NCBI GenBank assembly: GCA_028818775.1
Contig: JAPPNE010000052.1
Location: 66,697-130,696 of the forward strand
Source of the DNA: Deltaproteobacteria bacterium
Lineage (GTDB): Bacteria > Desulfobacterota > Binatia > UBA9968 > JAJDTQ01
Reading direction: 5' to 3'
Length of the DNA stretch: 64,000 nt
Part shown: one piece after another, positions 33,473-57,562 of the stretch
How the letters are laid out: every line of letters begins with the position of its first letter
Numbering within the stretch: position 1 is the stretch's first letter
Program-made: the position numbers and the translations under genes
Notes under the pieces: generated by a model
Seen by the model: the letters and a program-made list of their open reading frames with translations, nothing else
Told to the model about the DNA's origin: nothing
Databases searched by the model: none

Positions 33473-33642
33473 GTTCAGGCGGCGGCCCGACCCGCCTCGA
33501 CATCTCACTGTTGGCGTTCCGTCGGCTTGAAGCGCCGCCCGAACGTGCGCGCCTGCGCGGTCTGTCATGGCCTACATTCTTTACAAACTGGACATTGTGT
33601 CGTATCCTTGTCCTTGGCTACGAAACAGGGTGTGAGGGTGAC

Positions 33643-34203
33643 ATGGCCGAGTCTACCGGATCGATGAAGCAGGCGATGGGATTGCTCGCCGAGGGTTTCC
33701 CGGGGTTGTCGAGCAGTGCCAGGCATTTTGTTCGCGACCACCCGCGTGAGGCGCATCTCGCGGTCGCAGTCGCCCTGGAAACGGCCGCCGCGCAATGCGA
33801 GGCCGAAGAACGAAGCGCTGTCGTTGACATACCGGAAAGGCTGCGCCCGTTCGTCGTTCGTCGTGGTGACGAGGACATCCTGAGCGTTTCCGAGGCGGCG
33901 GCGCGGCTTAAGGTCTCCCGGACCACTATCTATGACTGGGTGGAAAGGAGAACTCTTCTTGCCTGGAGGTCGACGAAGCGAGGACTGAACATCCCCGCGG
34001 CACAGATTCTCGGCCCCGGACGGGTGGTCGCCGGCTTGGCGGATGTCGCCGCTGCTGTGGGAGACCCCGAACTGGCGTGGGCGTTTCTCACCCAGGAGTG
34101 GCCGTTTGAAGACACCGCTGCGCTACCTCTTGAGTTGCTGAGAACCGGCCGTATCGAAGATGTCCTCGACGCGGCACCGGGCTTCGGTTCGACTTTCACG
34201 TGA
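33643..34203 (+). CDS. HTH_17 (excisionase/MerR-like) DNA-binding domain protein
   Basis: From ATG 33643 (186 aa): LSVSEAAARLKVSRTTIYDWVERRTLLAWR is an HTH_17-type helix-turn-helix. It lies at the edge of the lower-GC island. Confidence 0.5.
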   Translation: MAESTGSMKQAMGLLAEGFPGLSSSARHFVRDHPREAHLAVAVALETAAAQCEAEERSAVVDIPERLRPFVVRRGDEDILSVSEAAARLKVSRTTIYDWVERRTLLAWRSTKRGLNIPAAQILGPGRVVAGLADVAAAVGDPELAWAFLTQEWPFEDTAALPLELLRTGRIEDVLDAAPGFGSTFT

Positions 34204-34287
34204 GCGTGCCCACCTATCCTCGGCGCAGGATTCGACCGTTCTCTTGAAAGCCGCTGTCCAACTACCACCACGCACCAAACCCTTCCC

Positions 34288-35001
34288 TTATGACAGCCAA
34301 ACATGCCACACAGAGATCGGTCCCGGCTTATGTGTGGGTGGCGACTGCATGCTGTAAACAAAACGCCTGCCATGTCGTGAACACGCCAGATCGGAAGAAC
34401 CAAGTCCCACAACGACCGGGAACTCTTCTACTAGATAACTCGAAGGATCTTGCGTTGCAGCCCTCGACAAAAACGGTGTCAGGTTGGCGCTGATCGACGA
34501 TCCATCACGAACGTAGCCGATCATAAATGCTTCGCGGCTGCCCCACGCATAGTCACCGTCCACAAAGCGACGAAGGCCATGTTCACAGTACAAGGCTTCC
34601 GTCTTTGAGGTGGCAGCATCCAGTATCTTGGCTTCCGTGACGAGTGGAAACCGTCGTGTCCTGTCGGACAGATAAATAGATAGGTCGGGACGTTTCTCAA
34701 GATGTAGACCATTGAAACTTAGACTCTCCTTCCCTCGTGCGACGCAAAGGACAAGGTTACCCCAGAAGGGGTCCTGTTCGATCAGCCGATTGAGGCGCGC
34801 CTCCATCAAGGCAGTTACCTCCGGCTCGTTACCCGAGGCCACTGTAGCCGGCTTCTGTGTCCGGATATCATTGAAAGCCCGAAGCAACCCCTCCGCAATG
34901 ATTTCGAGGTGCACCTTCGCGATCTCCGGCAGTGGAAGCCGAAGGCCGCGAGTCAATTCGGCGATTTGATCCGGTCGCGGGCGAATTGCTGAGCCCTTCA
35001 T
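34288..35001 (-). CDS. Putative PD-(D/E)xK-fold restriction endonuclease, translationally coupled to the upstream methyltransferase
   Basis: From ATG 35001 (237 aa), ATGA-overlapping the methyltransferase stop. KRPDLSIYLSDRTRRFPLVTEAKIL has PD…x14…EAK spacing typical of PD-(D/E)xK motifs II/III, with acidic residues upstream (GKESLSF). Confidence 0.45.
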   Translation of the reverse strand: MKGSAIRPRPDQIAELTRGLRLPLPEIAKVHLEIIAEGLLRAFNDIRTQKPATVASGNEPEVTALMEARLNRLIEQDPFWGNLVLCVARGKESLSFNGLHLEKRPDLSIYLSDRTRRFPLVTEAKILDAATSKTEALYCEHGLRRFVDGDYAWGSREAFMIGYVRDGSSISANLTPFLSRAATQDPSSYLVEEFPVVVGLGSSDLACSRHGRRFVYSMQSPPTHKPGPISVWHVWLS

Positions 35002-38000
35002 TTGGTAGCAGGCCCTTTCAGCAGATCGACGTGTGACCAGATAATGCGCTGGGCAAGCAACCGGGCCTGCGTCTCGCTCCAATAACGGCGTTGAGCGAGC
35101 CGCCCGATCAGAAGTCCATCGGTTCCGTCGCGAACGAGGACCTCAGACGCCGCCGCTTCGTCAGCTGCTCTAATCAACCCTTCCCAATCGCTTGCTTTTG
35201 CTGCTTCCCCTTCCCCGCGAAACGTTGTCCGTACATCGATGCCTTGCCACGGCGATATCTCCGGAGAAGGAATCTGGCGCACGGTCAGCGTCAAGCCGAA
35301 CCGTTCGCACCAGGGTGTCAATTCTCTTGTGAGAATCTCGCAAAACCGCTTTTTTTCGTCCGGAGAGGGGACAGCCTGGGCGTTCCGTTGGTTTGTGGCA
35401 AAAGGCAGATTGAATTCCAGTGTATCGGCAATGACCTGCATGTCGCGCGGACCAAGGCCATACAAGCGCATCACCCATTCATCCACGTCGTGCCAGGATA
35501 CTGCCCCCGAATTCAGGCCGTCGGTCAAATTCGCGATCTCAACAAGCTGGTATGGTTGGAGTTTGTGAAAATTCGGCAAGGGAATACGATCCAGCGTTGC
35601 CTTCTCTATCACTTCTCGCTCGAAACCGAACTCGCCGCTCGTGACAAGTGCCAGCCAAGTGACCAGTTTGCTTCCCAGAACGAGTGCGAGATAGCGAACT
35701 AGCATGCTGGCATCAGGATGCTGGCACGGACTGTATCCGTAGAACGTCTCGTTGAAAACGATACCCTCTTCAGAGATCGCCACACCAATGCGCCCTGTCG
35801 TTGCAGGTGGGGATTTGTGTACGACGACTAGTGGTCCAGCGAACAAATCTGGTGATCGGGGATCGTGAATGCGATCAAGCGAAAAAGCATTGAGAATTTC
35901 GCTATCGACGAAGATGCTCGCGAGGGATGCGACCGTAATTTCCGGCCGCTCCCAAAGGTAGCTCGCATCGACACCGGGCCGACCGTCGCCTCCCTGCCGC
36001 ACCCGACTGCTCGGTCTAAGCGCTTGGTACCCGTTGCCGCTACCTCGCAACTGGCCTCCCTCCGTGACACCGATCGTCTCGCGCCAGAACGCGCCCAGTG
36101 TTGGGAATCCCGACGCGCGAATCCGTTCGACGATCGCGAAATCGGCTTTCGTTCCGCGGAACAGTATTTTCAAGATATCGGGTGTCTCGATAAGCTGGCG
36201 GGAAGGAACGACTTCGGCATTCAGCGCATCGATGCGCATGCTGCCAGCGCCATTCAGGGAACCTTCTATCCGGGGAGTGACAAAACGAAAACCGCCCCCA
36301 GTACCTGGTGTTCGGTTGGCAGCGAGCAGGATACAAAAAGGAGCCGAAACTTGAGGCCAGACCTTCGTTTGCCTCAGTTCCACTCCATTGATGATCGATG
36401 TGACGTCAAGCGCTTCAAAGAGAGCTTGGCGCGCTTCCGGCATCCCGTCACCCTGTTGGAAGAGCAAACGGGCATGGAGTGCGAAGGCGATCTGTCCGTT
36501 TGGCTTCGCCCATTCCATTGCGCGCCACACAAACGGCAGATCGAGCCCTTCGTTCGGCAAGGGTGGCGATGCGTTTGTGACCTTCCTGTCCGCCGCGATG
36601 CGAGCCACCGTTTGACGTACAAGGTCCCAATCCGGCAACTTCGTGCCGCTTGCCCAAGGCGGATTGCCTATGACGAGGTCATACTGTCCGACATGCTCGG
36701 CTCCGACGAAAGGCCCTAGGCTTCCGAGTCCCGCACTTTCCTCTTCGGCCGTTACCCTGTGCAGCACGGTTCCGCGTAGATTGTCGAACCGTAACTTGTC
36801 GACCGGTCTGGGATTGGGATCCAGCTCGATTGACGCGAGATACAGGCCTAGTGCCGCAAACCGGAGTGCGGCTTCGTTGGTGTCAAGACCCACGATCTGG
36901 TTAGAGAGGATTCGCCTGAGCGCATTGGTGTCGGGCCGCTGTTTGTCGGCTCTCCAATGCTCCGCGATCAATTCGCGAAACGCTGTCAGCAAGAAAATGC
37001 CGCCACCTGCCGCTGGATCGAGAATCTTAGCGGTTTTGCCTACTCCTTCTCTACCCAGCGCGCGGAAGGACGCCCGGACCATCAGATCCGCGATCAGTCT
37101 GGGTGTATAATAACCTCCTTCGCGCCTTTGCCGACGTGGCGCGTGGTTTCTCAAATAGAGTTCATATGCCTGACTCAGAACCCCGACCGGAATATGTGCG
37201 AAGTCAAGGTTGTCCCACTTCTGCTCCCAGCCAAGAAACAACTGGCTATCCGGTGCCCGCCGAAGCACGTCTCCCAACGCACGATAGGCGCCATCAGGTA
37301 AGGTCGTGAAGATATTTTCCGAGAGAGGTAGCAGGTCACCGTTGAACGTCTCATCAAGCCAATTCGATGTGACTTCGGCCAACTCGCGGGTGTCGAAGAG
37401 ACTAGCGGCACTGGAAAAGCCGTCCGGCAGCAGGTTCCGATCCGCAAGGAACCTCGTAAAGAGTGCGCGGCCAACGAGCGAGACCGCGTCTCCGTCCGAG
37501 ACTGCATATCGCTCGATCATCTCGGTTGTGGAACCGGTGAGCAAGTTGAGGACAACGCCGGAAATCCAATCGCGTTGCCTGCTGGCCGATTGCGGACGAA
37601 TGTTGCCGAGTCGGGCCAACGCCACGGACCTCGCACTGTCCCCCAACTGCCAAGCCACACGGGCTTGCCGTAGTGACTTCTTGTCCAGAGCAATGCGGTA
37701 GACACTAAGGTGTCCGGGGGCGACTACACCAAGATAGGGAGCGTCTCCGCGCATGGCGAGTAGACGCCGTACGCGATGGAGTTGCTCGTCGTCTTCCAGG
37801 GAATCCGAGTCGACCAAGAAAATCAGGGGCGTGCCCTGCCATTCGTAGACGGCCTCCACCACACCCAGCGGGGTGTTTCCACTACGGCGGGCCGTCAGCA
37901 GTGTGGCGTAAGGAAGGAGTTCCGGACCGTCTCCATCGAGCAGACGCAAAGATGTTGGATCAGCGCCAAAGTCGATGAGCGAAGAAGCTACGTCGGCCAT

Positions 38001-38009
38001 CGGTCTCAC
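34998..38009 (-). CDS. Eco57I-family (gamma-class) N6-adenine DNA methyltransferase, 1003 aa, with large N- and C-terminal extra domains (Type IIG/IIS-like or PglX-like)
   Basis: In order: motif X-like GYYTPRLIADLMV, motif I DPAAGGGIFLLTAF, motif IV VIGNPPW. This is flanked by a ~280-aa N-region and a ~550-aa C-region (probable target recognition). GC is ~55-58% against ~69% in the flanks. Confidence 0.75.
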   Translation of the reverse strand: MRPMADVASSLIDFGADPTSLRLLDGDGPELLPYATLLTARRSGNTPLGVVEAVYEWQGTPLIFLVDSDSLEDDEQLHRVRRLLAMRGDAPYLGVVAPGHLSVYRIALDKKSLRQARVAWQLGDSARSVALARLGNIRPQSASRQRDWISGVVLNLLTGSTTEMIERYAVSDGDAVSLVGRALFTRFLADRNLLPDGFSSAASLFDTRELAEVTSNWLDETFNGDLLPLSENIFTTLPDGAYRALGDVLRRAPDSQLFLGWEQKWDNLDFAHIPVGVLSQAYELYLRNHAPRRQRREGGYYTPRLIADLMVRASFRALGREGVGKTAKILDPAAGGGIFLLTAFRELIAEHWRADKQRPDTNALRRILSNQIVGLDTNEAALRFAALGLYLASIELDPNPRPVDKLRFDNLRGTVLHRVTAEEESAGLGSLGPFVGAEHVGQYDLVIGNPPWASGTKLPDWDLVRQTVARIAADRKVTNASPPLPNEGLDLPFVWRAMEWAKPNGQIAFALHARLLFQQGDGMPEARQALFEALDVTSIINGVELRQTKVWPQVSAPFCILLAANRTPGTGGGFRFVTPRIEGSLNGAGSMRIDALNAEVVPSRQLIETPDILKILFRGTKADFAIVERIRASGFPTLGAFWRETIGVTEGGQLRGSGNGYQALRPSSRVRQGGDGRPGVDASYLWERPEITVASLASIFVDSEILNAFSLDRIHDPRSPDLFAGPLVVVHKSPPATTGRIGVAISEEGIVFNETFYGYSPCQHPDASMLVRYLALVLGSKLVTWLALVTSGEFGFEREVIEKATLDRIPLPNFHKLQPYQLVEIANLTDGLNSGAVSWHDVDEWVMRLYGLGPRDMQVIADTLEFNLPFATNQRNAQAVPSPDEKKRFCEILTRELTPWCERFGLTLTVRQIPSPEISPWQGIDVRTTFRGEGEAAKASDWEGLIRAADEAAASEVLVRDGTDGLLIGRLAQRRYWSETQARLLAQRIIWSHVDLLKGPATK

Positions 38010-38087
38010 CTGCGCGCCGGTCGCAACTGCAACTCGGAGTGATCGGCCGACAAACGCGGCGCCGACTTAGCTCCTTTCGACACCGCA

Positions 38088-38378
38088 TCACCCATCTAGC
38101 GCCAGATTGCTTTGACGGTCGCCCCCGAAATGACCTTGGCGGGCGCCGCCTCGTGGCTTCTTTGGAATGAGTTCCACTTTCGACAGGATCCGTCGATAGT
38201 CTCCACCCATCTCGCTGACCCCGACAATAAGGACTGTGATGAGAGCGAGATGAGTAGGAATTTCGCCTGAGCGCGCATAGTTGGAGATTGAGTTCGGGTT
38301 CATACCCAAGAGTCCAGCGAATGCACGGACGCTCAACCCAGCCTTCCCAAGTTCTACTAGGAACTCCCTATAAGACAT
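38088..38378 (-). CDS. XRE-family HTH protein, controller (C-protein)-like regulator of the R-M module
   Basis: From ATG 38378: MSYREFLVELGKAGLSVRAFAGLLGMNPNSISNYARSGEIP is an XRE-type HTH. It sits immediately upstream of, and co-oriented with, the methyltransferase. The C-terminal stretch is hydrophobic (HLALITVLIVGV). Confidence 0.55.
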   Translation of the reverse strand: MSYREFLVELGKAGLSVRAFAGLLGMNPNSISNYARSGEIPTHLALITVLIVGVSEMGGDYRRILSKVELIPKKPRGGARQGHFGGDRQSNLALDG

Positions 38379-38400
38379 CTCGGTGCTCGTACACACAAAT

Positions 38401-38433
38401 TAATGTGGAAGACCACATACTTTAATGTAACCA
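38401..38433 (-). promoter_or_regulatory. Palindromic putative C-box/operator upstream of the HTH gene
   Basis: TAATGTGG-AAGA-CCACAT (6-bp arms) is followed by a direct repeat TTTAATGT, ~25 nt upstream of the HTH start. Confidence 0.35.
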
Positions 38434-38587
38434 AGGTTATGTTACAGCAGCCCGCTTCTCTTCGCAAGAGCTTTCAACATCAGCGAATTCTCCGGGATTC
38501 CGGCTAAAACTGTGTGCGACATCGTCGCTGCGTCGTCCAGGCGAATCCCATTCCAAGTAGGGTGGTAGGGCGTATGGCTCGAACATC

Positions 38588-39157
38588 TCACGCGTAGCAC
38601 TCCAGAAAATCCTTCAGCAGCGTCTTCCCGCCCTCCGCCAGGATCGACTCCGGGTGGAACTGGACGCCCTCCACCGGGTGGCGCTGGTGGCGGACGCCCA
38701 TGATGACGCCGTCGGCGGTGCGGGCGCTGACGCTGAGTTCATCGGGGAGGCTCTCCGGGTCGAGCACGAGGGAGTGGTAGCGCATGGCGGAAAAGGGGTT
38801 GGCCTGGGAGCGGTAGATGGTGCGGGCGTCGTGGGTGACGTCCGACATCTTGCCGTGCATGATCTCGGCGGCGCGCACCACGCGGGCGCCGTAGGCGGCG
38901 CCGATGCATTGATGGCCCAGGCACACGCCCAGGATGGGGATGCGGGAGCCGCAGCGTTGGATGACCTCGCACGAGACACCGGCTTCGTTGGGCGTGCACG
39001 GGCCGGGCGACACGACGATGGCGTTCGGGCGCATCTCGTCCACCGCGTCGGCGCTGATCTTGTCGTTGAGGGCCACGCGCACATCGGCGCCCAGCTCGGC
39101 CAGGTAGTGGTAGAGGTTGTAGGTGAAGGAGTCGTAGTTGTCGATGAGCAGGATCAT
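38588..39157 (-). CDS. trpG: Anthranilate synthase component II (glutamine amidotransferase)
   Basis: From ATG 39157: MILLIDNYDSFTYNLYHYL…GVCLGHQ(C)IG…HPES carries the class-I GATase triad. ATGA overlaps the trpE stop. Confidence 0.85.
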   Translation of the reverse strand: MILLIDNYDSFTYNLYHYLAELGADVRVALNDKISADAVDEMRPNAIVVSPGPCTPNEAGVSCEVIQRCGSRIPILGVCLGHQCIGAAYGARVVRAAEIMHGKMSDVTHDARTIYRSQANPFSAMRYHSLVLDPESLPDELSVSARTADGVIMGVRHQRHPVEGVQFHPESILAEGGKTLLKDFLECYA

Positions 39158-40656
39158 GCCGTCTGCTGCCGCTCCTTGCGCCAGGACTCCGCCAGCTCGA
39201 TGGCCTTGAGCATGCCGCGGGCCTTGTTGAGGGTCTCCTCGTACTCCGTCTCGGGGTCGGAGTCGGCGACGATGCCGGCGCCGGCCTGGATCACCGCATT
39301 GCCGTTGTGAAGGGTGATGGTGCGGATGGCGATGCACGTGTCGAGGTTGCCGTTGAAGCTCAGGTACCCTACCGCGCCGGCGTAGAGCCCGCGCCGTTCC
39401 GGCTCCAGCTCACTGATGATCTGCATGGCCCGGATCTTCGGTGCGCCCGACACCGTGCCCGCCGGGAAGCAGGAGCCGAACAGCTCAAGCGGCGTCTTTC
39501 CCGGTGCCAGCTCCGCCTTGATGTTGGAGACGATGTGCATGACGTGGGAATAGCGCTCCACGACCATGAGCTGGTCCACGTCCACCGAGCCCACCTCGGC
39601 CACCCGCCCCACGTCGTTCCGCCCAAGGTCCACGAGCATGATGTGCTCGGCGCGCTCCTTCGGGTCCGCGAGAAGATCTTCCTCCAACTCCCGTTCCTCC
39701 CGCGCGTCCTTGCCCCGCGGGCGCGTGCCGGCGATGGGCCGGAGCTCGATCCGGCTTCCGGTCAGGCGCACCAGGATCTCGGGCGAGGAGCCGATGATCT
39801 TGAGGTCGTCCAGCTCCAGGTAGAACATGTAGGGAGACGGGTTGGTGAAGCGCAGCGCACGGTAGATCTCCAGGGGCTCGGCCCGAGTCTTCGCCTCCAG
39901 CCGCTGGGACAGCACCACCTGGATGACGTCGCCGGCCGCGATGTACTCTTTCCCCTGGCGCACCATGGCGCGGAACGTGTGCGGCGTGACGTTGGAACGG
40001 TACCGGACGCCGCCACCGGTCCCGGTTAGGCTTCTGGCCTCCAGGGCTTCGGGCGACTTCCGCAGGGAGGTTCGCACGCGCTCGATGCGGGCCACCGCTT
40101 CGCCGTAGAGGACGCGCAGGCTCTTGTTGGTGTCGATGTGGACGTTGTCGATGATCGTGATGGTGTGCTTGAGGTTGTCGAAGCTCACCAGCGTGCGCAC
40201 CAGCAGGAAATAGACGTCGGGATAGCGGTTGGCGCTCCGGTCCGGATTGGCCACCCCGTGCAGCCGTTCCACCGCGTCGTAGGCCACGTATCCCAGGGCG
40301 CCGCCGGTGAACGGCAGATCCGGAATCGTGTTGGCGGGCCGGTACTCTCCGAGAAGTTCCGTGAGCGCCTTCAGCGGATCATCGCAGGTCCATTTCTTCT
40401 TCCTTCGCCCCTCCGTCACCTCCACCTCGCGCCCCCAGGCCTTGAACACCAGCTCGGGCTCGGTGCCCAGGAACGAATAGCGCGCCCAGCGCTCGCTCCC
40501 TTCCACGCTTTCCAGCAGGAACGAGTGCCGGCTCTTCTTCAGGCGGTTGTAGAACGACACCGGCGTCTCGAAATCCATGAGGGTTTCCTCGTACACCGGA
40601 ACGACGTTTCCGCGCTTGGCGAGTGCCGCGAACTCGCGGTACGAAGGTTGGATCAT
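39154..40656 (-). CDS. trpE: Anthranilate synthase component I
   Basis: 500 aa with the chorismate-binding domain (…LVDLGRNDVGRV…GAPKIRAMQIISELE…YAGAVGY). Confidence 0.85.
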   Translation of the reverse strand: MIQPSYREFAALAKRGNVVPVYEETLMDFETPVSFYNRLKKSRHSFLLESVEGSERWARYSFLGTEPELVFKAWGREVEVTEGRRKKKWTCDDPLKALTELLGEYRPANTIPDLPFTGGALGYVAYDAVERLHGVANPDRSANRYPDVYFLLVRTLVSFDNLKHTITIIDNVHIDTNKSLRVLYGEAVARIERVRTSLRKSPEALEARSLTGTGGGVRYRSNVTPHTFRAMVRQGKEYIAAGDVIQVVLSQRLEAKTRAEPLEIYRALRFTNPSPYMFYLELDDLKIIGSSPEILVRLTGSRIELRPIAGTRPRGKDAREERELEEDLLADPKERAEHIMLVDLGRNDVGRVAEVGSVDVDQLMVVERYSHVMHIVSNIKAELAPGKTPLELFGSCFPAGTVSGAPKIRAMQIISELEPERRGLYAGAVGYLSFNGNLDTCIAIRTITLHNGNAVIQAGAGIVADSDPETEYEETLNKARGMLKAIELAESWRKERQQTA

Positions 40657-45376: not shown

Positions 45377-45523
45377 GTTCCAGCCAATCCAGCAATCCGC
45401 AATCTGCGGTCCACTTCAAGGGGTTTCGGGTGCTGCCGTGGTTTCTGCGGTGACGGCGCTGCTTGCGATTCCACGTTCCCAAGGATTCGGGTGCCTGTCA
45501 CCGGCGGCAACGGCTGGGGCGGG

Positions 45524-45811
45524 TCAGGTGATGTATCCCCATTTGCGGAAGGTGTCCTGGAGCGCTGGATCGCTCCGAAAAGCCTGGTAGTAGATGTATT
45601 CCGGCGCCAGGTCCGTCCCGTTGGGCCAGACGATAGTCTGAAGTTCTTCGTCCACACGAAACTGCCGGAATACCTCCGGATCCTTCAGCAACTCGAACAC
45701 CGGCCCGGTCAGCGCTTCCGCAAGATCCGCCACGCCTTCGCGGCCGTCATCGAAGCACACCTGCACGCGAAAGCCGTCGAGCGGCGTCGCCTTTGTCACG
45801 TGAAGAAACAT
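45524..45811 (-). CDS. DUF2442-domain protein
   Basis: MFLHVTKATPLDGFRVQVCFDDGREGVADL…VDEELQTIVWPNGTDLAPEYIY matches the DUF2442 pattern. Length is 95 aa. Confidence 0.6.
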   Translation of the reverse strand: MFLHVTKATPLDGFRVQVCFDDGREGVADLAEALTGPVFELLKDPEVFRQFRVDEELQTIVWPNGTDLAPEYIYYQAFRSDPALQDTFRKWGYIT

Positions 45812-45933
45812 GAGTCATTCCAGTGGGTCGATGGGATTCGGAGTTTCTTTTCTACGACACCTTTCCCAGTTATCCGATGGTCGTCCCAATACATGGCGAT
45901 GACAATTCCAAGGAATCTGCTGATAACCGGCAT
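45796..45933 (-). pseudogene. DUF4160-like short ORF (N-terminus conserved, C-terminal half divergent or truncated)
   Basis: Hand translation gives MPVISRFLGIVIAMYWDDH…, which matches the DUF4160 N-terminus (MPtISrFyGIvIrMY..DH). The expected PPHFH core is absent. This 45-aa ORF is not in the supplied track. It overlaps the DUF2442 start by 16 nt. Confidence 0.4.
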
Positions 45934-45954
45934 GTCGTCTCCCACCCCCTGCCG

Positions 45955-48900
45955 TCATGCCTGCTCGTTACGTCGAGCAGCCGTAGATAGCCTTCGGAAC
46001 GCTGGGCAATCAGCCAAGCCGGGCGCTAATGTCTTGACCCGGTCAAGAGCGTTGCTCAAGTCGTATGGCACGATCGCGTCCTGCTCTTCTCCAATGGTCA
46101 AATCCAGCAACGTAAGGAGTGCGGCGGCCTTTCGTTCATCGTTGACCGCCAACTGTAGCTTCGAGACGGCTTCACTTCCAGTTCCAACCTCGCCATAGAG
46201 CCCATACTCTAGTGTTGACCAGCAATCAAAGGGGACAAGGAAACGCTTCATCTCATCAACGGCTTCGGCAAAAGCCTCGCCCGAGGCGGCGGGGATATGG
46301 GACAACTCTCGGCTTGTGTCGCGTGTCGTCAAGTCGCTTTCTTGTGGCCACACGCTCCGAAAGAACGGCTTGACGGCTACATGAAACAGCTTTTCAACGG
46401 ATCGTATTTCTCCTTCTTGCGGTGGCCCTTCTTCCTGGAAGTACCGGATAGCGCAGGCTGCAAACAGACGCGTTTCGTCGTCTGCTGATCGGAGCATTTG
46501 TGACACGCGGGGTTCGGCCACCAAGGGCCTACGTTCGTCTCGGAACGCCGTCAACACTTCGATGACAAGGCAAGAAACAAGCGATTCCCGGGCTTCTCGA
46601 CCGAGGCGATGGTCAGTTGCCCTTTCAATCACCTTGTCACCGATGATTTCAAGTAGAGGCTTGCCGCTTCGACGTGCGGCCTTGCGCCAAAGTGCAATGG
46701 ATTGGAAGTCATCCGCCAACAACGGGTCCACCAGATATTGTTTCGTCCAGTCAGGGTCTGCGTTCTGGAAGAATGGCAAACGTTCCGCTAGTCGGCAGTG
46801 TGCCACTAGGCCGCTATGGTCGGAGGCGCTGATGATTCGATCTCGCATCTGCCGCGCAGGGCTGCCGTCGGAGAAGGGGCGGGCATCTTTGCCGACGGCT
46901 TGGCAGGCGGCCAGGAAGACTTCAATGAATTGTCCCGCTGGTGTGTTGAGAGTGTCGATATCCAGGGACTCTTGCTGGTCACCCGAAGAGTTGGTCAGGA
47001 TATGGTCCCGGTCGTTAGCGACGGCATTGGTCCTTTCGACTGCAATAGGCCAAGCTTGCAGCCAGACGGGCAAGCCGTGTTCTGATCGGATGACATATCG
47101 ACTCCAACTGAAGAGCCAGTGGCTGATACCCCAGATGGCTTCCGTAAGGTTCGTCTCCGACAGGTTCCTCAGCAGATACAGGATACGGTTTGCCTCATCT
47201 TGTGGCTGGGGTGGTGGTTCAAGACTCGGCGTCGGGGGAGATGGCGAATGAAGCGAAAGGAAACAATCCCAAAGGCGCGGAAACTCCTCCCCGGCCCTAG
47301 TGAATGATTCCAAGTCCGAGAGAAGGAGCACGGCACTACCGGCCCGTTGGAGCCAAGCTTTGGCGGAGTTGTCGATCCAATGAACTCCATCGTGTGACAG
47401 TTCCTCGTTCAGTGCCCGAAGGCGGGCCTCTCCTTCAAGCAGGTCATATGGAGTGTCGGCCGAGAGCCGCGGAACGGGATGCGCCTGTGCATCGAAAAAC
47501 CCGCCATCCACGCGCATGTCTTCGAGTTGGGGAAGTTCCTTGATTCGTTTGAGCAACCATCGGCGGGTTTTTGGCGCTATGATGCCGCCGGCGACTTCCA
47601 CTCGTTTGACTTCACGTGCGGCACAGTACCGTCTGCGAGTTTTGAGTTTGTGCGGCGGACCCTTGCACAAACGCTGGACAATCGTTTCCTGAACGTCCCG
47701 CCGAAGTTCCTTAACGCGTCTTGCCCTCAGTTCGGTGATCTCGGGGAATTCATCCAGACCCCAAAGCTCGTAGTCAGATAGTGTCACCAGGAAGTCACCG
47801 ACATCGTCAGCGCTTACCAACTGTGGATCCCGGGCGATTGCGGCCCATAGGCGCCGGTGGACGCCAGACCGCGACAACTGCCAGCCTGGGAAGAAGGGCG
47901 TGGCGGCCTGCTGATCGAGTTCGGAAATGCGGATGACAATTTCGTGAAGCAACTTGACCGACGGCGCGATTCCATCATTAAAGAGATCGGGCTCACCGCC
48001 CTCATGGCCGAATGCTTCTTCGACGTCTCTACCCTTCCCGTGGGGACGAACGAAATACACACGGTGAGGACTTTCCCAAGGCACCTCACGGCCTTCATCA
48101 GTCTTGTAGATCCGATTGATGACGTTGAGCCCGTATTGGACTGAAGATGCCAGCCCGTCTGCCAGTTCCTTCAGGAATTGTATTTCTGAAACCGTGCCTA
48201 TGTGGAGGTCGCCGTAGTCGTTCAGATTACCCAGGTTGACGCTCGTCAGGTTCGCCGACAGAAGGTCTTCAAAGATCTTTGGGTGTCGAGGCCTTTCCTC
48301 AATCGCTTTGACCTCCAGACGAGGCGCGAACAGATCCACAATCGCTGAAATCAGGGCGCCGGAACGCTCGCCTTTGCCGAGTCGATCACGGATCGTTACA
48401 AATGCCATCGCCGGATGGTCCCTGATCGGGCGATTAGACCAGCTTTCCTCGATCAAGCGCCATGCAGTCGCATAGGGTTCCTTCAACTCAGGACTGCCGT
48501 AATCGTTCAGTAGCTCGTCTATTGCGATCCGTTTGGTACTCCAGTTGGATTCTTTGAGCGCCCAATCGATCGTGGCTGGCTCAGCAAGCCGGTTCTTCAG
48601 AAACGTGGTCATGACTTGGGCGTGATGGCGGTCGGTCTCGCTCAACCCCGCCCATGAATGAATGGCGGTGGCTGGTCCGAACTTTTTTCCGGGCGTGGTC
48701 TCAATGATGGAATCCAGCCATCCGGGCTCGGCCTTCGCACCCGACGCCACACCTGCCAAGCGAATGCGTTCATTCGCATGCCCTCGCCTGAACAGGTGGT
48801 CGAACAGGTCACGATCAGCCTTGGGGGTGGCGGCTCTGCTCTCCCGTACGATCCGTCTTACCTCAACATCGACGGTTTTCGTCTTTCCGTTGATTGCGGA

Positions 48901-49896
48901 GAGTTTGGCCCACCGTTCAAGCGCATCGCGCAGCACGGAATGGTCTCCATTTCGAGCATCGTAGTGGATCGGGGTGATGCCCCGTGCCTTCCAGTCTTGC
49001 AATTCCACGGGGTCCCCAGAGCCAACGAAGGTAAACCGTTCTTTCAAATCGCTGAATCGGGCTCCGTCGGCGGCGACGGCGTTCAGCAGGTAGCGCATCG
49101 GCGGATCGTTGGCGCTATAGCCCGCCAGGACGAGATGGAAGAGGCGTGCGGCGTCGTAGATGAGATCAGGGACAATCCTCCGACGCAGATAGTATTCCCC
49201 GAGGTCCTGGTCCGACAACACGAGATCCGAGAAGCGAGCCGGATTCCGGTCCAAGGCTCCGTGAATATGGAGCACTCCAGCGAACTCCTTGCGCGTCGTG
49301 GGTCTCGGGATCGATCCCAACGCATAGGTTTGCACTGGGGAACCAAGGCGCTTGGCAGCGGCTTCGAGCAAGAGGTCAAAGTTGGTGGTCATGATCGTCG
49401 TGACGCCGCCGCGGTCGGCTAGGCGCATGAGCGCCCGATGTATTGGCGCCGGTTTGTCGCTTGCTTGGCGCAGCAGTTCCGCTACGGTGCTTCTGACCTT
49501 GCTCGTGATCTTGTTCTTTTCATGAGTTTGATCGTCCAGCCGGCGTTCAAGCATTCCCAAGACCACGTCGTACTCGCCGGCAACGAACCGCTTGACCTCT
49601 GCCTTTTGGTTATTCCTGAGCTTCGACCAACCCGGTTCTGTAGTGTCAAGTGCGCGGTTAGGAGTCTTCGGAAGGATTTCGTAGACGCTTGCATCAAGCC
49701 TTTCATAGACGTCGCGTACCAGTTCTCGGAAGTCAGGCAGCCCCGCAGGACGTGAGATACCCGCACCGCAGATGAAGAGTACTTCGCCCCGCGCATGTGC
49801 CAGAAGCAAGCGTTCCGGAATCTCCGGGAGGCCTGGGCTGAGCGAAACGGCGCGGTAAGCGTCGTCACCGTGATCGGAATGAGGTAAATTGCTCAT
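45955..49896 (-). CDS. Large (1313 aa) SIR2_2-domain protein, defence-associated sirtuin (DSR)-like
   Basis: The N-terminal ~330 aa carry SIR2_2/DHS-like motifs (LFICGAGISRPAGLPDF; VTTIMTTNFDLLLE; VLHIHGAL). These are followed by ~1000 aa with no recognised catalytic motif (helical/repeat-like). GC is ~57%. Confidence 0.65.
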   Translation of the reverse strand: MSNLPHSDHGDDAYRAVSLSPGLPEIPERLLLAHARGEVLFICGAGISRPAGLPDFRELVRDVYERLDASVYEILPKTPNRALDTTEPGWSKLRNNQKAEVKRFVAGEYDVVLGMLERRLDDQTHEKNKITSKVRSTVAELLRQASDKPAPIHRALMRLADRGGVTTIMTTNFDLLLEAAAKRLGSPVQTYALGSIPRPTTRKEFAGVLHIHGALDRNPARFSDLVLSDQDLGEYYLRRRIVPDLIYDAARLFHLVLAGYSANDPPMRYLLNAVAADGARFSDLKERFTFVGSGDPVELQDWKARGITPIHYDARNGDHSVLRDALERWAKLSAINGKTKTVDVEVRRIVRESRAATPKADRDLFDHLFRRGHANERIRLAGVASGAKAEPGWLDSIIETTPGKKFGPATAIHSWAGLSETDRHHAQVMTTFLKNRLAEPATIDWALKESNWSTKRIAIDELLNDYGSPELKEPYATAWRLIEESWSNRPIRDHPAMAFVTIRDRLGKGERSGALISAIVDLFAPRLEVKAIEERPRHPKIFEDLLSANLTSVNLGNLNDYGDLHIGTVSEIQFLKELADGLASSVQYGLNVINRIYKTDEGREVPWESPHRVYFVRPHGKGRDVEEAFGHEGGEPDLFNDGIAPSVKLLHEIVIRISELDQQAATPFFPGWQLSRSGVHRRLWAAIARDPQLVSADDVGDFLVTLSDYELWGLDEFPEITELRARRVKELRRDVQETIVQRLCKGPPHKLKTRRRYCAAREVKRVEVAGGIIAPKTRRWLLKRIKELPQLEDMRVDGGFFDAQAHPVPRLSADTPYDLLEGEARLRALNEELSHDGVHWIDNSAKAWLQRAGSAVLLLSDLESFTRAGEEFPRLWDCFLSLHSPSPPTPSLEPPPQPQDEANRILYLLRNLSETNLTEAIWGISHWLFSWSRYVIRSEHGLPVWLQAWPIAVERTNAVANDRDHILTNSSGDQQESLDIDTLNTPAGQFIEVFLAACQAVGKDARPFSDGSPARQMRDRIISASDHSGLVAHCRLAERLPFFQNADPDWTKQYLVDPLLADDFQSIALWRKAARRSGKPLLEIIGDKVIERATDHRLGREARESLVSCLVIEVLTAFRDERRPLVAEPRVSQMLRSADDETRLFAACAIRYFQEEGPPQEGEIRSVEKLFHVAVKPFFRSVWPQESDLTTRDTSRELSHIPAASGEAFAEAVDEMKRFLVPFDCWSTLEYGLYGEVGTGSEAVSKLQLAVNDERKAAALLTLLDLTIGEEQDAIVPYDLSNALDRVKTLAPGLADCPAFRRLSTAARRNEQA

Positions 49897-49926
49897 GACG
49901 GTTCAAGTGTAGCAGAGTAACCGCCC

Positions 49927-49970
49927 GTCAGCATGGCGGCAAGATGAGGTCAGCATGGCGGCAAGATGAG
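49927..49970. repeat. Perfect 22-bp tandem duplication (GTCAGCATGGCGGCAAGATGAG x2) in the divergent SIR2/mod intergenic region
   Basis: Read directly: 49927-49948 equals 49949-49970. Each unit contains the mini-ORF ATG GCG GCA AGA TGA. Confidence 0.9.
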
Positions 49971-50040
49971 GGTGGTAGGCCAAAGATGTTTGACGGCGGC
50001 AACGGTCGCGGCTTAACTTGAGGAAAGGAGAAATTCAGAG

Positions 50041-52797: not shown

Positions 52798-54443
52798 TCC
52801 GCACGGTTCGCATCCGGGGCTTCAAGCGTTTCGATGATGTGGAGTTCCGTCTGCCGGGGCACATGGTCCTGGCCGGTCCCAACAATACCGGGAAAACGAC
52901 GGTGCTTCAGGCTATCGCTTCATGGTCCCTTGCCTTGCGGCGGTGGCGTGAGCTCAACGACTTCAATCCTCGACAGGGTTATACGCGTGCGCCTATCGCG
53001 AGGCAGGCGTTTGCGGCGGTTCCTCTTCGGAGTTTCGATCTGATGTGGAAAGACCGCGAATATTGGGATCAGATCGAGATCGAGATCCGGCATGACGCCG
53101 GCTGGTCCGTGACGATGGAGCTTATCGCGGACAGCACTGAGCAGATCTATGTCCGCCCCAAGGTGGATGTGCCGGCTGATACGCTGCGCAAACTGGACCT
53201 TGGCGTGGTCTACGTACCTCCGATGACCGGATTGGAGACAAACGAACGGCTATTTCAGCCTGCTGCCATCGAGCAGATCCTCGGCCTCAGCCGTCCCGGC
53301 GAAGTGTTGCGCAATCTGCTGGTCGTCGCGAGCCTCGATGATGCCGCTTGGGCTGCAATTCAAGACTCTATAGGGAAGCTCTTCGGCTATGAGCTGCTAG
53401 TCCCTGACGCCAGTGGGCCGTATATCCGGGCCGAGTACAGAATGACGAAAGGGGGGCAGCCCCTTGATATCGCCAGCGCGGGTAGCGGGTTTCAACAGGT
53501 GCTGATGCTGCTCACGTTTCTCAATACGAGGGAGGGTTCGGTTCTCCTTCTCGACGAGCCCGATGCGCATCTTCACCTGATCCTGCAGGACGCCATCTAC
53601 TACGAGCTTCGCACCGTTGCCGCCCGTCATAGATCCCAGCTCGTCATTGCGACACACTCCGAGGTGATAATCAATTCGGTCGAGCCTCGCGAGCTATGTG
53701 TCACACTCAACGAGCCCCGGATGGTTGCCGACAATGAGGAGCGCAGCCGACTGATTAAATCACTTGGTGTACTCAGTAACGCAGATGTGATGCAGGCGTT
53801 TGAGGTCCGCGGTGTGCTGTACGTCGAAGACTACACGGACATCAACATCCTGCGGACCTGGGCCACGAACCTGAAACACAAGGCCGAATCCCTGCTCACT
53901 ACCGAGTTGATGTGGAAGCCGGTGGTTTTCCAGGCGCAGGAAGGGCGGCCAGGGATCAAGGCGCGAGACCATTTCGACGCGCTACGACTCGTGCGGGACG
54001 AATTACCTGGTCTGGAACTGCTCGACGGTGACGCTCACCCCGCGGTACCGGAGACAGAAATCACCCGGACGGGCTTGCAGCGGCTTCGCTGGCGACGTTA
54101 CGAGATTGAGAGTTATCTTGTTCACCCGCATGCGCTGGCCCGCTTCGTCGAGGCAGAAGTCGGAGTCGGCTCCGCTGAGCTGCATGTCCAGGACATGCTC
54201 ACCTACTGGCGCAACGAATTTCCTCCGGCGGTAATGGATGACCCGCTGGGAGAGCACGAGTTCCTGAACGCAACGAAAGCGCGCTTGCGACTGCTTCCCC
54301 CTTTGCTGGACGCCGCGGGACTCCACGGGCTACCACACACTCGCTATCATGAGATCGCGGCGCTGATGCTCCCGGAGGAGATTCATCCAGAAGTGGTCGA
54401 GAAACTCGACGCCATTTGCCGTGCTTTCGGGGTCGAGCCATGA
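52794..54443 (+). CDS. OLD/AAA_21-family ABC-type ATPase with a C-terminal TOPRIM/DUF4435-like region (Gabija GajA / PARIS AriAB / class-2 OLD-like)
   Basis: GTG 52794 overlaps the mod TGA (GTGA), and the stop overlaps the res ATG (ATGA). Walker A GPNNTGKTT, signature-like ASAGSGFQQVL, Walker B LLLDEPDAHLH and ATHSE are present. The C-terminal region has GVLYVEDYTDINIL (E…DxD-like). Confidence 0.6.
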   Translation: MIRTVRIRGFKRFDDVEFRLPGHMVLAGPNNTGKTTVLQAIASWSLALRRWRELNDFNPRQGYTRAPIARQAFAAVPLRSFDLMWKDREYWDQIEIEIRHDAGWSVTMELIADSTEQIYVRPKVDVPADTLRKLDLGVVYVPPMTGLETNERLFQPAAIEQILGLSRPGEVLRNLLVVASLDDAAWAAIQDSIGKLFGYELLVPDASGPYIRAEYRMTKGGQPLDIASAGSGFQQVLMLLTFLNTREGSVLLLDEPDAHLHLILQDAIYYELRTVAARHRSQLVIATHSEVIINSVEPRELCVTLNEPRMVADNEERSRLIKSLGVLSNADVMQAFEVRGVLYVEDYTDINILRTWATNLKHKAESLLTTELMWKPVVFQAQEGRPGIKARDHFDALRLVRDELPGLELLDGDAHPAVPETEITRTGLQRLRWRRYEIESYLVHPHALARFVEAEVGVGSAELHVQDMLTYWRNEFPPAVMDDPLGEHEFLNATKARLRLLPPLLDAAGLHGLPHTRYHEIAALMLPEEIHPEVVEKLDAICRAFGVEP

Positions 54444-57400: not shown

Positions 57401-57562
57401 GAAACCAAGGGCTATGACCCCATAGCCCAAGTCAAGTCACAAGCAGCCCACCGGTGGGTCAACGCTGTAAACGCAGACAGGCGATTCGGCACATGGAGCT
57501 ACGAGTTGGTGACGGACATGGGTAAGGTGGGCGAAGCCGTGAATCGGGCAGCCATGTCGTGA
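54440..57562 (+). CDS. res: Type III restriction enzyme Res subunit (SF2 helicase plus C-terminal PD-(D/E)xK nuclease)
   Basis: Walker A MATGTGKTT, DEAHH box and motif VI-like GMLTEGWDCNTVTHIVGLRP are present. The C-terminal nuclease motif is YLPDFIVRL…LILETKG. Length is 1048 aa. Confidence 0.75.
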   Translation: MNPHEVSEPILNAPFDEPREHWWITEHDPPERRPGRRPAMYFYRRPGSEPSLEQQGTGTAIELKLVNRVRAKLAEWRPLALRGEGGVTRTTVELLRYWRQEGRRHRLFFAQIEAAETIIFLTEARPDFLQGIRVPLDEPGEEARADGFRAFRRYACKMATGTGKTTVMGMLAAWSILNKVAARGDARFSDVVLIVCPNVTIRNRLEELKPQAGEASLYRTRDLVPSHLMPQLARGHVLVTNWHVFEPKTAQVAGQSAKVLRAGREIRTRETIRIGPKTTTARGIRYLTLADLERQAAAGLIAVRDEQRDRQGNLKSVSVESFRYVESDAKLIDRVLGREIGGKGNILVMNDEAHHAYRLRRVEPEEGEEDLFGETDDSEEFYREATVWVDGLDRVHKHRGINLCVDLSATPYYLGRVGQDANRPFPWVVSDFGLVDAIESGLVKIPQLAVRDTTGSHIPGYFNIWRWILPRLTPAERGGRRGSVKPEAVLKYAHVPVAMLGGLWELLREEWSKRDGESRPPVFIIVCKNTALAKVIYQWLAEDKAPVGIPPARLEGLRNTDGNLCTIRVDSKVVRESDSGQTRSDADQWMRVTLDTVGKTDWPRDGQRRPIYPEGFETLANKLERPLHPPGRDVRCIVSVGMLTEGWDCNTVTHIVGLRPFMSQLLCEQVVGRGLRRSSYAVGEDGKLGEEVAKIFGVPFEIVPLKENPPDNGAPPPPKTWRIRAVPEKAALEIRFPRVEGYTQGIRNRVKVDWESIAPLRLDPMDIPPEVEMKAGLPSNTGRPSLVGPGQLERVDLNPYRNNTRLQQLVFEMARDLTRDYREQPGCDAPPHVLFTQLATIVDRYIREKVVPVEPARDIDAFLSPWYGWLVERLVAAVRPDHGNGDEAELPRYESGRGPGSTAEVDFETRRVPYPVVKSHVNAVVPDTAKWEQSAAYRLDTHELVHSFVKNAGLGFAIPYLHNGEQHEYLPDFIVRLTRDTAHYLILETKGYDPIAQVKSQAAHRWVNAVNADRRFGTWSYELVTDMGKVGEAVNRAAMS

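What the first reader, a model, noticed from the sequence alone, without database searches (positions are those of the whole stretch)
34288..38433. Compact R-M module: C-protein-like HTH, giant Eco57I-family methyltransferase and ATGA-coupled PD-(D/E)xK nuclease
The genes are co-oriented on the minus strand. An XRE-HTH gene is preceded by a palindrome and followed by a 1003-aa gamma-class N6-adenine methyltransferase (GYYTP / DPAAGGGIF / NPPW). Its stop overlaps, as ATGA at 34998-35001, the start of a 237-aa protein with a textbook PD…EAK spacing. This is the arrangement expected of a controller-regulated Type II(S/G-like) R-M system in which a large methyltransferase/target-recognition protein partners with a small separate nuclease. 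GC is ~55-58%, below the host. Since the large protein also resembles BREX PglX, the precise system type is open.
Basis: partly seen in the sequence, partly recalled or inferred. Interest (0 to 1): 0.65.

Follow-up and report, generated by a model that had tools for sequence, protein, structure and literature searches.

The report
Three-gene restriction-modification cassette, nuclease encoded separately
This is a small, horizontally acquired three-gene cassette (regulator, large adenine DNA methyltransferase, small nuclease) that is almost certainly a restriction-modification defence system; it belongs to a widespread family I found undescribed, but it is not a new kind of biology.

Summary
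On the minus strand lie a 96-aa HTH gene (38088-38378), a 1000-aa gamma-class N6-adenine methyltransferase, MT (34998-38000; the mechanical ORF starts at 38009), and a 237-aa protein, NUC (34288-35001). NUC's ATG overlaps the MT stop as ATGA. The cassette has 57% GC against about 66% in the flanks.

MT and NUC were adjacent in every related locus whose contig allowed the check, across at least five phyla and down to 27% NUC identity. The stop/start overlap was 4 bp in 27 of 38 loci. MT is therefore not an orphan.

E59, D106, E123 and K125 are invariant in 76 diverse NUC sequences, which is the PD-(D/E)xK signature. Coupling analysis supports the expected strand topology. The structure model was poor at the motif, and no profile or fold search matched, so the nuclease fold remains inferred.

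MT keeps its catalytic motifs. It is colinear with Type IIG enzymes, but its N-terminal domain lacks D...ExK.

The HTH gene is preceded by a conserved double palindrome (ACAT-N6-ATGT twice, 22 bp apart). This resembles a controller-protein operator, but the protein is not a member of that family. About half the loci lack the HTH gene.

Best reading: a restriction-modification system whose nuclease probably acts as a subunit of the methyltransferase. Interest is moderate.

The parts
38393..38428 (-). Double operator ACAT-N6-ATGT, 8-bp spacer, ACAT-N6-(A/G)TGT. The boxes are 22 bp apart start to start and end 14 nt before the HTH start codon. This is the presumed binding site of the HTH protein and overlaps its promoter.
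   Evidence: Unique in the window, with 0 matches in 100 shuffles. Of 20 related loci with the HTH gene, 17 carry at least one exact ACAT-N6-ATGT box at a similar distance upstream of the start codon, and 9 carry both exact boxes; near-matches supply the second box in most others.
38426..38446 (-). Extra inverted repeat TGTAAC-N9-GTTACA, overlapping the distal box. It is specific to this window.
   Evidence: Read from the sequence. It is not conserved in other loci.
38088..38378 (-). HTH regulator, 96 aa. The helix-turn-helix is near the N-terminus (LSVRAFAGLLGMNPNSISNYAR) and the tail is basic and glycine-rich.
   Evidence: Weak HTH_31, HTH_17 and HTH_3 hits, all below Pfam cut-offs. It is 72-75% identical to upstream genes in P. 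aeruginosa, Rhizobium and Sphingomonas loci. The family has 307 clusters, the 120 best listed all at least 68% identical; NCBI names members 'XRE family'.
38005..38011 (-). Shine-Dalgarno sequence AGGTGAG for MT, 5 nt before ATG 38000.
   Evidence: Read from the sequence.
34998..38000 (-). MT, a gamma-class N6-adenine DNA methyltransferase of 1000 aa. Layout in mechanical-ORF numbering (aa 1-1003): conserved N-terminal alpha/beta domain (about 1-135), helical region (about 140-260), methyltransferase domain (about 270-540), and a conserved C-terminal half (about 536-1003) that is presumed to recognise DNA.
   Evidence: Pfam N6_Mtase 2e-19 and Eco57I 3.4e-10. The PADLOC Type IIG model scores 8.6e-25 but covers only aa 218-634. 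LDPAxGxG and GNPPW are at least 97% conserved in 34 sequences. The B. glumae homologue is split at residue 536.
34998..35001 (-). ATGA, where the MT stop codon overlaps the NUC start codon (translational coupling).
   Evidence: The same 4-bp overlap occurs in 27 of 38 related loci.
34288..35001 (-). NUC, a 237-aa predicted PD-(D/E)xK endonuclease with catalytic candidates E59, D106, E123 and K125.
   Evidence: These four residues are invariant in 76 diverse sequences. No Pfam, PADLOC, NCBIfam, PHROG or PDB-sequence hit. Coupling analysis supports the strand topology. Some UniRef entries name members 'Restriction endonuclease'.
34200..38560 (.). Extent of the low-GC inserted cassette. It lies between a convergent HTH_17-type gene (33619-34203) and trpG (38588-39337). 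It has no integrase and no conserved ends.
   Evidence: GC profile. Similarity between loci stops at the NUC stop codon and about 60 bp upstream of the HTH gene. The neighbouring HTH_17 gene is absent from other loci.

Best explanation
This is a self-contained, horizontally mobile restriction-modification cassette.

- **Modification.** MT binds a specific DNA sequence through its conserved C-terminal half and methylates adenine (N6). This marks host DNA as self.
- **Restriction.** NUC is the restriction component, a Mg2+-dependent PD-(D/E)xK endonuclease with catalytic residues E59, D106, E123 and K125.
- **How NUC is targeted.** I think NUC most likely does not find its target alone. It would work as a detachable subunit of MT, which is built like a Type IIG enzyme whose own N-terminal nuclease position holds a conserved but non-catalytic domain. 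That makes the pair a 'Type IIG enzyme in two pieces'.
- **Expression.** The HTH protein binds two tandem palindromic operators that overlap its own promoter and so autoregulates the whole HTH-MT-NUC transcript. NUC synthesis is tied to MT synthesis by the ATGA stop/start overlap.

Shown here: gene order, MT catalytic motifs, strict MT-NUC linkage, operator conservation and foreign GC. Inferred: nuclease activity, operator binding, and above all the MT-NUC complex. I give about 0.8 that this is a restriction-modification system and about 0.45 to the complex version stated here.
For: **MT looks active.** Motif I (LDPAxGxG) and motif IV (GNPPW) are at least 97% conserved in 34 sequences, with Pfam N6_Mtase at 2e-19.

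**NUC carries the nuclease signature.** E59, D106, E123 and K125 are invariant in 76 sequences of 27-73% identity. Direct-coupling analysis (263 sequences, effective number 162) gave these results:
- An antiparallel beta1(84-92)/beta2(102-110) ladder, with six pairs above the 99.9th percentile.
- A weaker beta2/beta3 hairpin that places D106 next to E123.
- Helix alpha1 packing on the sheet.

**The pairing is obligate and old.**
- MT is adjacent to NUC in all genome loci that allowed the check, from Alpha-, Beta- and Gammaproteobacteria, Acidobacteriota, Gemmatimonadota and Desulfobacterota.
- The same holds on plasmids at 33-34% NUC identity.
- It also holds at 27% NUC identity, with an 8-bp overlap.
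- MT and NUC identities to the window fall together, from about 72/67% to about 43/43%.
- The overlap is 4 bp in 27 of 38 loci.

**Architecture points to a trans-acting nuclease.**
- MT is colinear with about 1020-aa Type IIG models from residue 218 to 634.
- The N-terminal domain is conserved (E56, R82, R87, D89 and Y104 invariant at 31-73% identity) but has no ExK.

**The regulator is dispensable.** It is absent or replaced in about half the loci. The MT-NUC pair must therefore be safe to establish without it, as expected if cleavage depends on MT.

**Operator.** The double palindrome is conserved upstream of the HTH gene.

**Foreign origin.** GC is 57% against 66% in the flanks.
Against: - There is no structural confirmation of the nuclease fold. 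The AF2 model is unreliable at residues 85-117 and Foldseek against the PDB gave no hit with E below 0.1.
- No profile method links NUC to any known nuclease family.
- There is no direct evidence of an MT-NUC complex. No fused MT-NUC protein appeared among the 120 closest relatives or the 150 best representatives. hhalign found no NUC-like domain inside MT.
- Many ordinary Type II systems pair a large gamma-class methyltransferase with an independent small endonuclease (PMC3874165).
- The MT structure model was too poor (pLDDT 50) to interpret the N- or C-terminal domains.
- The recognition sequence is unknown.
Confidence: 0.45

Rival explanations
1. Conventional Type II system (IIP or IIS). 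MT is a large monomeric gamma-class methyltransferase with a fused recognition domain, and NUC is an independent homodimeric endonuclease that recognises the same sequence by itself. The HTH protein acts as its controller.
For: Large gamma-class methyltransferases paired with separate endonucleases are well documented, either as one chain or as separate M and S proteins (PMC3874165). The B. glumae relative splits MT into 548-aa and 448-aa genes, like those M + S forms. NUC has about 55 N-terminal and about 50 C-terminal conserved residues beyond the catalytic core that could read DNA. Controller-type regulation is typical of independent Type II enzymes (PMC2175313).
Against: The MT-NUC pairing and translational coupling persist down to 27% NUC identity. 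That is more typical of subunits than of independently evolving enzymes. MT carries about 270 conserved N-terminal residues that methylation alone does not need. The regulator is dispensable in half the loci, and where present it governs M and R together, not R alone.
Confidence: 0.35
2. NUC is not a nuclease. It would be an accessory, specificity or regulatory subunit of a methyltransferase whose role is epigenetic (an orphan-like MT).
For: No profile or fold match to any nuclease family. The structure model is disordered at the PD motif.
Against: E59, D106, E123 and K125 are the residues kept invariant across the whole family, with canonical spacing (PD-x16-ExK). The coupling-derived topology fits the fold. 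The cassette is mobile, low in GC and patchily distributed, and sits at the edge of an integrative element in P. aeruginosa, which is how defence genes behave.
Confidence: 0.08
3. A BREX-like or other multi-component methylation-based defence in which MT is a PglX homologue and further components lie elsewhere.
For: Weak PglX hits in PADLOC and NCBIfam, covering about 70 aa around motif I.
Against: PglX scores of 17-32 bits fall far below cut-offs of 400-900. No PglZ, BrxC or BrxL genes, ATPase or helicase lies next to the cassette here or in the related loci. The flanks differ in every genome and only MT and NUC are constant. MANTIS (Gao_RL) needs two ATPases and a helicase-nuclease (bioRxiv 10.64898/2026.09.23.753747).
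Confidence: 0.03

Closest known systems
Type IIG / IIL restriction-modification enzymes (Eco57I, MmeI, BpuSI, DrdV)
   Same: A protein of about 1000 aa with the order N-terminal domain, helical connector, gamma-class N6-adenine methyltransferase, C-terminal DNA-recognition half. Pfam Eco57I and N6_Mtase match, with a weak MmeI_Mtase hit. The best PADLOC hit is a Type IIG model, aligned colinearly over residues 218-634. DrdV (7lo5) is among the weak PDB sequence hits.
   Different: The N-terminal domain has no D...ExK motif anywhere in the family. The only PD-(D/E)xK signature is in a separate, translationally coupled 237-aa protein. The N- and C-terminal halves have no detectable similarity to solved IIG enzymes.
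Type II systems with composite or split gamma-class methyltransferases and a separate endonuclease, including AhdI-type 'Type 1 1/2' systems with a controller protein
   Same: A separate small endonuclease, a gamma-class methyltransferase with a fused (window) or separate (B. glumae) C-terminal module, and a small HTH regulator with tandem palindromic operators (PMC3874165).
   Different: No similarity to Type I S subunits or Methylase_S. MT has an extra conserved N-terminal domain of about 270 aa. Gene order is regulator-M-R in one operon, not C-R with M transcribed separately.
Controller (C) proteins such as C.PvuII, C.AhdI and C.Esp1396I
   Same: A small HTH protein encoded at the head of the restriction-modification operon. 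Two tandem palindromic operators sit immediately upstream of its own start codon, leaving room for only a very short leader (PMC2175313).
   Different: - The operator is ACAT-N6-ATGT twice, 22 bp apart. The classical C-box is GACT-N3-AGTC-N4-GACT-N3-AGTC, 15 bp centre to centre.
- There is no sequence match to solved C proteins, and the Pfam HTH_3 hit is below cut-off.
- It would control M and R together.
- It is absent from about half the family.
Type IIB enzymes (BcgI, BsaXI: RM + S subunits) and Type III enzymes (Mod + Res)
   Same: Restriction activity that depends on a multi-subunit complex built around the methyltransferase/recognition protein. BsaXI RM is a weak PDB hit.
   Different: In Type IIB the nuclease is fused to M and the S subunit is separate; here it would be the reverse. 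Type III Res is a large ATP-dependent helicase-nuclease, whereas NUC is 237 aa with no ATPase.

Membership tests
Restriction-modification system (generic) | DNA methyltransferase with intact SAM-binding and catalytic motifs | tested here: met
   N6_Mtase 2e-19 and Eco57I 3.4e-10. LDPAxGxG and GNPPW are at least 97% conserved in 34 sequences.
Restriction-modification system (generic) | Cognate endonuclease gene genetically linked to the methyltransferase | tested here: met
   MT is adjacent to NUC in all loci that allowed the check, down to 27% NUC identity. The overlap is ATGA in 27 of 38 loci.
Restriction-modification system (generic) | Methylation of a defined motif protects DNA from cleavage by the partner nuclease | not testable with these tools
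   Needs methylome data and cleavage or phage assays.
PD-(D/E)xK nuclease superfamily (for NUC) | Conserved E ... (P)D ... (D/E)xK catalytic residues with canonical spacing | tested here: met
   E59, D106, E123 and K125 are invariant in 76 sequences of 27-73% identity, and P105 is at least 90% conserved. The spacing is PD-x16-EAK.
PD-(D/E)xK nuclease superfamily (for NUC) | Restriction-endonuclease-like alpha-beta-beta-beta-alpha-beta fold | tested here: inconclusive
PD-(D/E)xK nuclease superfamily (for NUC) | Profile match to a described nuclease family | tested here: not met
   No Pfam, PADLOC, NCBIfam or PHROG hit. None for any of the 76 members. The PDB profile search returned only chance-level hits.
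Type IIG restriction-modification enzyme | Nuclease and methyltransferase in one polypeptide, with an N-terminal D...ExK motif | tested here: not met
   The N-terminal domain keeps only E56, R82, R87, D89 and Y104 invariant. No ExK is present in any of six sequences of 31-73% identity or in the 34-sequence alignment.
Type IIG restriction-modification enzyme | Gamma-class methyltransferase core colinear with IIG models | tested here: met
   PADLOC model PDLC03623 scores 8.6e-25, aligning protein residues 218-634 to model positions 228-628 of 1022.
Controller (C) protein family | Sequence membership: XRE/HTH_3-type C protein similar to C.PvuII, C.AhdI or C.Esp1396I | tested here: not met
   HTH_31 at 16.7 bits and HTH_3 at 13.7 bits fall below cut-offs of 27 and 23. 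The profile search against the PDB found no C protein.
Controller (C) protein family | Canonical C-box GACT-N3-AGTC-N4-GACT-N3-AGTC upstream of its own gene | tested here: not met
   The operator here is ACAT-N6-ATGT-N8-ACAT-N6-RTGT. The canonical form is taken from PMC2175313. The logic of tandem palindromes at its own promoter is the same.
BREX PglX | PglX family model above cut-off, with PglZ, BrxC or BrxL genes as neighbours | tested here: not met
   NCBIfam BREX methyltransferase models score 17-32 bits against cut-offs of 400-900. The neighbours are trpG/trpE and an HTH_17 gene plus folK. No BREX genes were seen in the related loci.
AhdI-type ('Type 1 1/2') M+S methyltransferase | Type I-like S subunit or recognition domain | tested here: not met
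   No Methylase_S or other Pfam hit in the MT C-terminal half or in the split 448-aa B. glumae protein.

The most novel reading that the evidence does not exclude
The MT-NUC pair is a natural 'split Type IIG' enzyme. An ATP-independent restriction holoenzyme would form when a free 237-aa PD-(D/E)xK subunit docks onto the conserved, catalytically dead N-terminal domain of the methyltransferase/recognition protein and cuts at a fixed distance from the methylation site. This would be a previously undescribed subunit organisation, and a fission or fusion intermediate between separate-enzyme Type II systems and single-chain Type IIG/IIL enzymes. Because it is very widespread (more than 800 clusters at 90% identity across at least five phyla, common in P. 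aeruginosa integrative elements), it is probably being mis-scored as a single-gene Type IIG system or as an orphan methyltransferase.
Probability: 0.4. Interest if true: 0.55.

Novelty: new variant of a known kind. Interest (0 to 1): 0.4.

Why it matters
If the reading is right, a large family of genes now annotated as 'N-6 DNA methylase' plus 'hypothetical protein' is an active restriction barrier. The family spans hundreds of clusters and includes many Pseudomonas aeruginosa, Rhizobium/Agrobacterium and Sphingomonas genomes and plasmids. Its nuclease family has no Pfam, PADLOC or NCBIfam model, so defence-system censuses would miss it or misclassify it.

The two-piece arrangement, together with the three-piece B. 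glumae form, offers a convenient system for asking how Type IIG single-chain enzymes arose and how a nuclease is licensed by a methyltransferase. It could also yield a new specificity for REBASE. It does not change how restriction-modification is understood in general.

Tried and rejected
2. **Structure of MT.** The AF2 model had pLDDT 49.7 and was unusable, so no fold search was run on it.
3. **Profile searches with NUC.** Searches against Pfam, PADLOC, NCBIfam, PHROGs and PDB sequences found nothing. That included all 76 diverse members and the family profile. The Hsp90 match (E 0.4) is chance.
4. **Is NUC a paralogue of an MT domain?** hhalign of NUC against the MT N-terminal and C-terminal domains gave probability 0.
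5. **Is the neighbouring HTH_17/excisionase-like gene (33619-34203) part of the cassette?** It has no homologue in any other locus.
6. **Does the cassette have conserved ends or a terminator?** Similarity stops at the NUC stop codon.
7. **Is it phage-borne?** Only 1 of 2.9 million viral contigs carried it.
8. **Literature.** Five searches found no description of this gene pair. MANTIS/Gao_RL was read and excluded because it needs ATPases.
9. **Locus search with the diverse NUC alignment.** It failed because no stretch was conserved enough. The closer alignment was used instead.

Full report
**What is in the sequence**

Three co-oriented genes lie on the minus strand.

- **HTH.** This small helix-turn-helix protein occupies 38088-38378 and is 96 aa from the ATG. 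The mechanical ORF begins at a GTG at 38396.
- **MT.** This large methyltransferase occupies 34998-38000. The mechanical ORF starts at GTG 38009, but that GTG sits inside the Shine-Dalgarno sequence AGGTGAG. The family consensus and the NCBI protein both begin at the ATG nine bases on, giving 1000 aa.
- **NUC.** This 237-aa protein occupies 34288-35001. Its ATG overlaps the MT stop as ATGA at 34998-35001.

The cassette has 57.2% GC against 65.9% in the flanks. The drop runs from about 34200 to about 38560, which is exactly these three genes. The flanking genes are housekeeping genes, trpG/trpE on one side and folK and an aminotransferase on the other. A convergent HTH_17-type gene at 33619-34203 does not travel with the cassette.

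**The methyltransferase**

- Pfam gives N6_Mtase (2e-19) and Eco57I (3.4e-10), plus a sub-threshold MmeI_Mtase hit.
- The best PADLOC models are Type IIG REase-MTase models (8.6e-25). They align only residues 218-634 to model positions 228-628 of 1022. MT is therefore colinear with Type IIG enzymes, but its first 220 or so and last 370 or so residues are not recognised.
- PglX and MADS2 hits are marginal and far below their cut-offs.
- The nearest solved structures by sequence are all distant: LlaBIII at 2e-6, Type I HsdM proteins, DrdV, CamA and BsaXI. They match the catalytic core only.
- In 34 family members spanning 52-74% identity to the window, motif I (LDPAxGxG) and motif IV (GNPPW) are at least 97% conserved. 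The enzyme is presumably active.
- The N-terminal domain is strongly conserved. LLPYA, YEWQ..PL and RR..AMRGDAPY are kept, and E56, R82, R87, D89 and Y104 remain invariant in relatives of 31-34% identity. No D...ExK motif occurs in any member. D89-x14-Y104 has the spacing of a PD-x15-ExK motif and could be a degenerate nuclease relic, but that is speculation.
- The AF2 model of MT was too poor to use, with pLDDT 49.7.
- The C-terminal half (536-1003) is a discrete module. On Burkholderia glumae plasmid p22s3p the protein is split at exactly that point into 548-aa and 448-aa genes. Its least conserved stretches are about 626-750 and 901-950, which are candidate specificity regions.

**The 237-aa protein**

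NUC has no hit in Pfam, PADLOC, NCBIfam, PHROGs or PDB sequences. This holds for the single sequence, for all 76 diverse members and for the family profile.

The family is large. It has 813 clusters at 90% identity, and 456 representatives at 50% identity have E-values of 0.001 or better.

In an alignment of 76 members of 27-73% identity, the invariant columns include E59, D106, E123 and K125, and P105 is at least 90% conserved. That is the canonical E...PD-x16-ExK signature of PD-(D/E)xK nucleases.

As a substitute I ran a mean-field direct-coupling analysis on 263 sequences (effective number 162).
- The top pair is E67-K91.
- Six pairs above the 99.9th percentile form an antiparallel ladder between residues 84-92 and 102-110.
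- Weaker pairs with a constant index sum of about 230 include D106-E123 and indicate a beta2/beta3 hairpin.
- T63-A124 and E67-L107 place helix alpha1 on the sheet.
- The beta3/beta4 pairs have a constant offset of about 35, which indicates parallel strands.

This is the topology of the restriction-endonuclease-like fold. With so few effective sequences it is supportive evidence only. Some UniRef entries already carry the automatic name 'Restriction endonuclease'.

The NCBI annotation of NUC in this metagenome-assembled genome starts 29 codons late. Family conservation from M1 supports the ATGA start.

**Linkage**

Fifty genome loci came from Alpha-, Beta- and Gammaproteobacteria, Acidobacteriota (Vicinamibacterales, Bryobacterales), Gemmatimonadota and Desulfobacterota. 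In every one where the contig allowed the check, an MT homologue abuts the NUC homologue. The same is true of the loci found through exact protein look-up.

- The stop/start overlap is 4 bp in 27 of 38 loci.
- MT and NUC identities to the window decline together, from about 72/67% to about 43/43%.
- The pairing holds in plasmid relatives with 33-34% NUC identity: P. frederiksbergensis (998-aa MT with a 249-aa NUC) and B. glumae.
- It also holds in a relative with 27% NUC identity, where a 1050-aa N6_Mtase/Eco57I protein overlaps NUC by 8 bp.

MT is therefore never an orphan, and the pair is an old, co-inherited unit.

Similarity between loci ends at the NUC stop codon and about 60 bp upstream of the HTH gene. 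The surroundings differ in every genome. In P. aeruginosa the cassette sits next to the integrase of an integrative element. Cassette GC is usually below that of high-GC hosts. Only one viral contig carries it.

**The regulator**

The HTH protein has only sub-threshold HTH hits and no match to solved controller proteins. Its family has 307 clusters. The 120 best listed are all at least 68% identical, and the members whose context I examined all lie next to MT.

Of 20 related loci with the HTH gene, 17 carry at least one exact ACAT-N6-ATGT box at a similar distance upstream of the start codon. Nine carry both exact boxes, 22 bp apart start to start, and near-matches supply the second box in most of the others. 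In the window the second box ends 14 nt before the ATG. In the window the composite pattern occurs once, at 38393-38428, and never in 100 shuffles.

This is the logic of controller-protein C-boxes, namely tandem palindromic operators at the regulator's own promoter with a very short leader. The sequence and geometry differ from the canonical GACT-N3-AGTC-N4-GACT-N3-AGTC, which is 15 bp centre to centre (PMC2175313).

About half the loci lack this gene. A deeper branch has instead an unrelated protein of about 155 aa that is conserved between Sphingomonas/Devosia loci and the two plasmids. Some loci have no obvious regulator. The core system is therefore MT plus NUC.

**Interpretation**

The evidence supports a restriction-modification cassette (about 0.8). 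The remaining question is whether NUC is an independent Type II endonuclease or a subunit of MT.

For the subunit model:
- The pairing and translational coupling are very persistent.
- MT is colinear with Type IIG enzymes and has a conserved non-catalytic domain where the nuclease should be.
- NUC is conserved as well as MT is.
- The regulator is dispensable, and where present it would regulate M and R together, not delay R.

For independence:
- Many documented Type II systems pair a composite or split gamma-class methyltransferase with a separate endonuclease (PMC3874165).
- No fused MT-NUC protein was seen.
- NUC has extra conserved N- and C-terminal segments that could read DNA.

I favour the subunit ('split Type IIG') model at about 0.45 against about 0.35 for the conventional model.

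BREX-like or MANTIS-like readings are excluded by the absence of any ATPase, PglZ or helicase partner and by the sub-threshold PglX scores.

**Novelty**

Five full-text searches found no description of this gene pair. I could not query REBASE, which may already list members as putative enzymes.

A new endonuclease family and a new regulator/operator pair are normal findings for restriction-modification systems. The two-piece Type IIG-like organisation would be a new variant if confirmed.

Interest is moderate (0.4). The finding is solid, widespread and unannotated, but it falls within a well-understood class of system.

Noticed in passing
window 45500-59000: A second low-GC stretch (56-61%) looks like a defence island. 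It holds a 1313-aa SIR2_2-domain protein (45955-49896, minus strand), a 918-aa N6_N4_Mtase (50041-52797), an AAA_21/AAA_15 ATPase (52794-54443) and a 1048-aa ResIII helicase-like protein (54416-57562).
   Followed up: partly
window 33619-34203 (+): An HTH_17/excisionase-type DNA-binding protein lies convergent with NUC. By eye, its C-terminal part resembles the toxin-binding domain of Xre/MbcA/ParS antitoxins, but no Pfam hit confirmed this and no partner toxin was seen. It is absent from all other cassette loci.
   Followed up: partly
L059 (Burkholderia glumae plasmid p22s3p) 3276-7465: This is a four-gene version of the system: a 163-aa small protein, a 548-aa methyltransferase, a 448-aa protein equal to the C-terminal half of the window's MT (split at residue 536), and a 221-aa NUC homologue. 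It lies next to the MobF relaxase of a conjugative plasmid.
   Followed up: yes
L041, L042, L044, L047, L059, L060, upstream of MT: An alternative upstream protein of about 150-160 aa (MALTTIQFTQEQAR...) has no Pfam hit. It is weakly but consistently conserved between distant branches and takes the place of the 96-aa HTH gene.
   Followed up: partly
L061 9900-10598: A second, chimeric NUC paralogue lies downstream of a DDE transposase. Its C-terminal half is 85% identical in DNA to the first copy, and the catalytic EAK has become EAA, so it is probably inactive.
   Followed up: partly
L016, L044, L026, L033, L046, L054, L056, L058: Several genomes carry disrupted copies, with MT truncated or frameshifted or NUC interrupted by an insertion of about 1.5-3 kb. 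This suggests frequent inactivation of the cassette.
   Followed up: no
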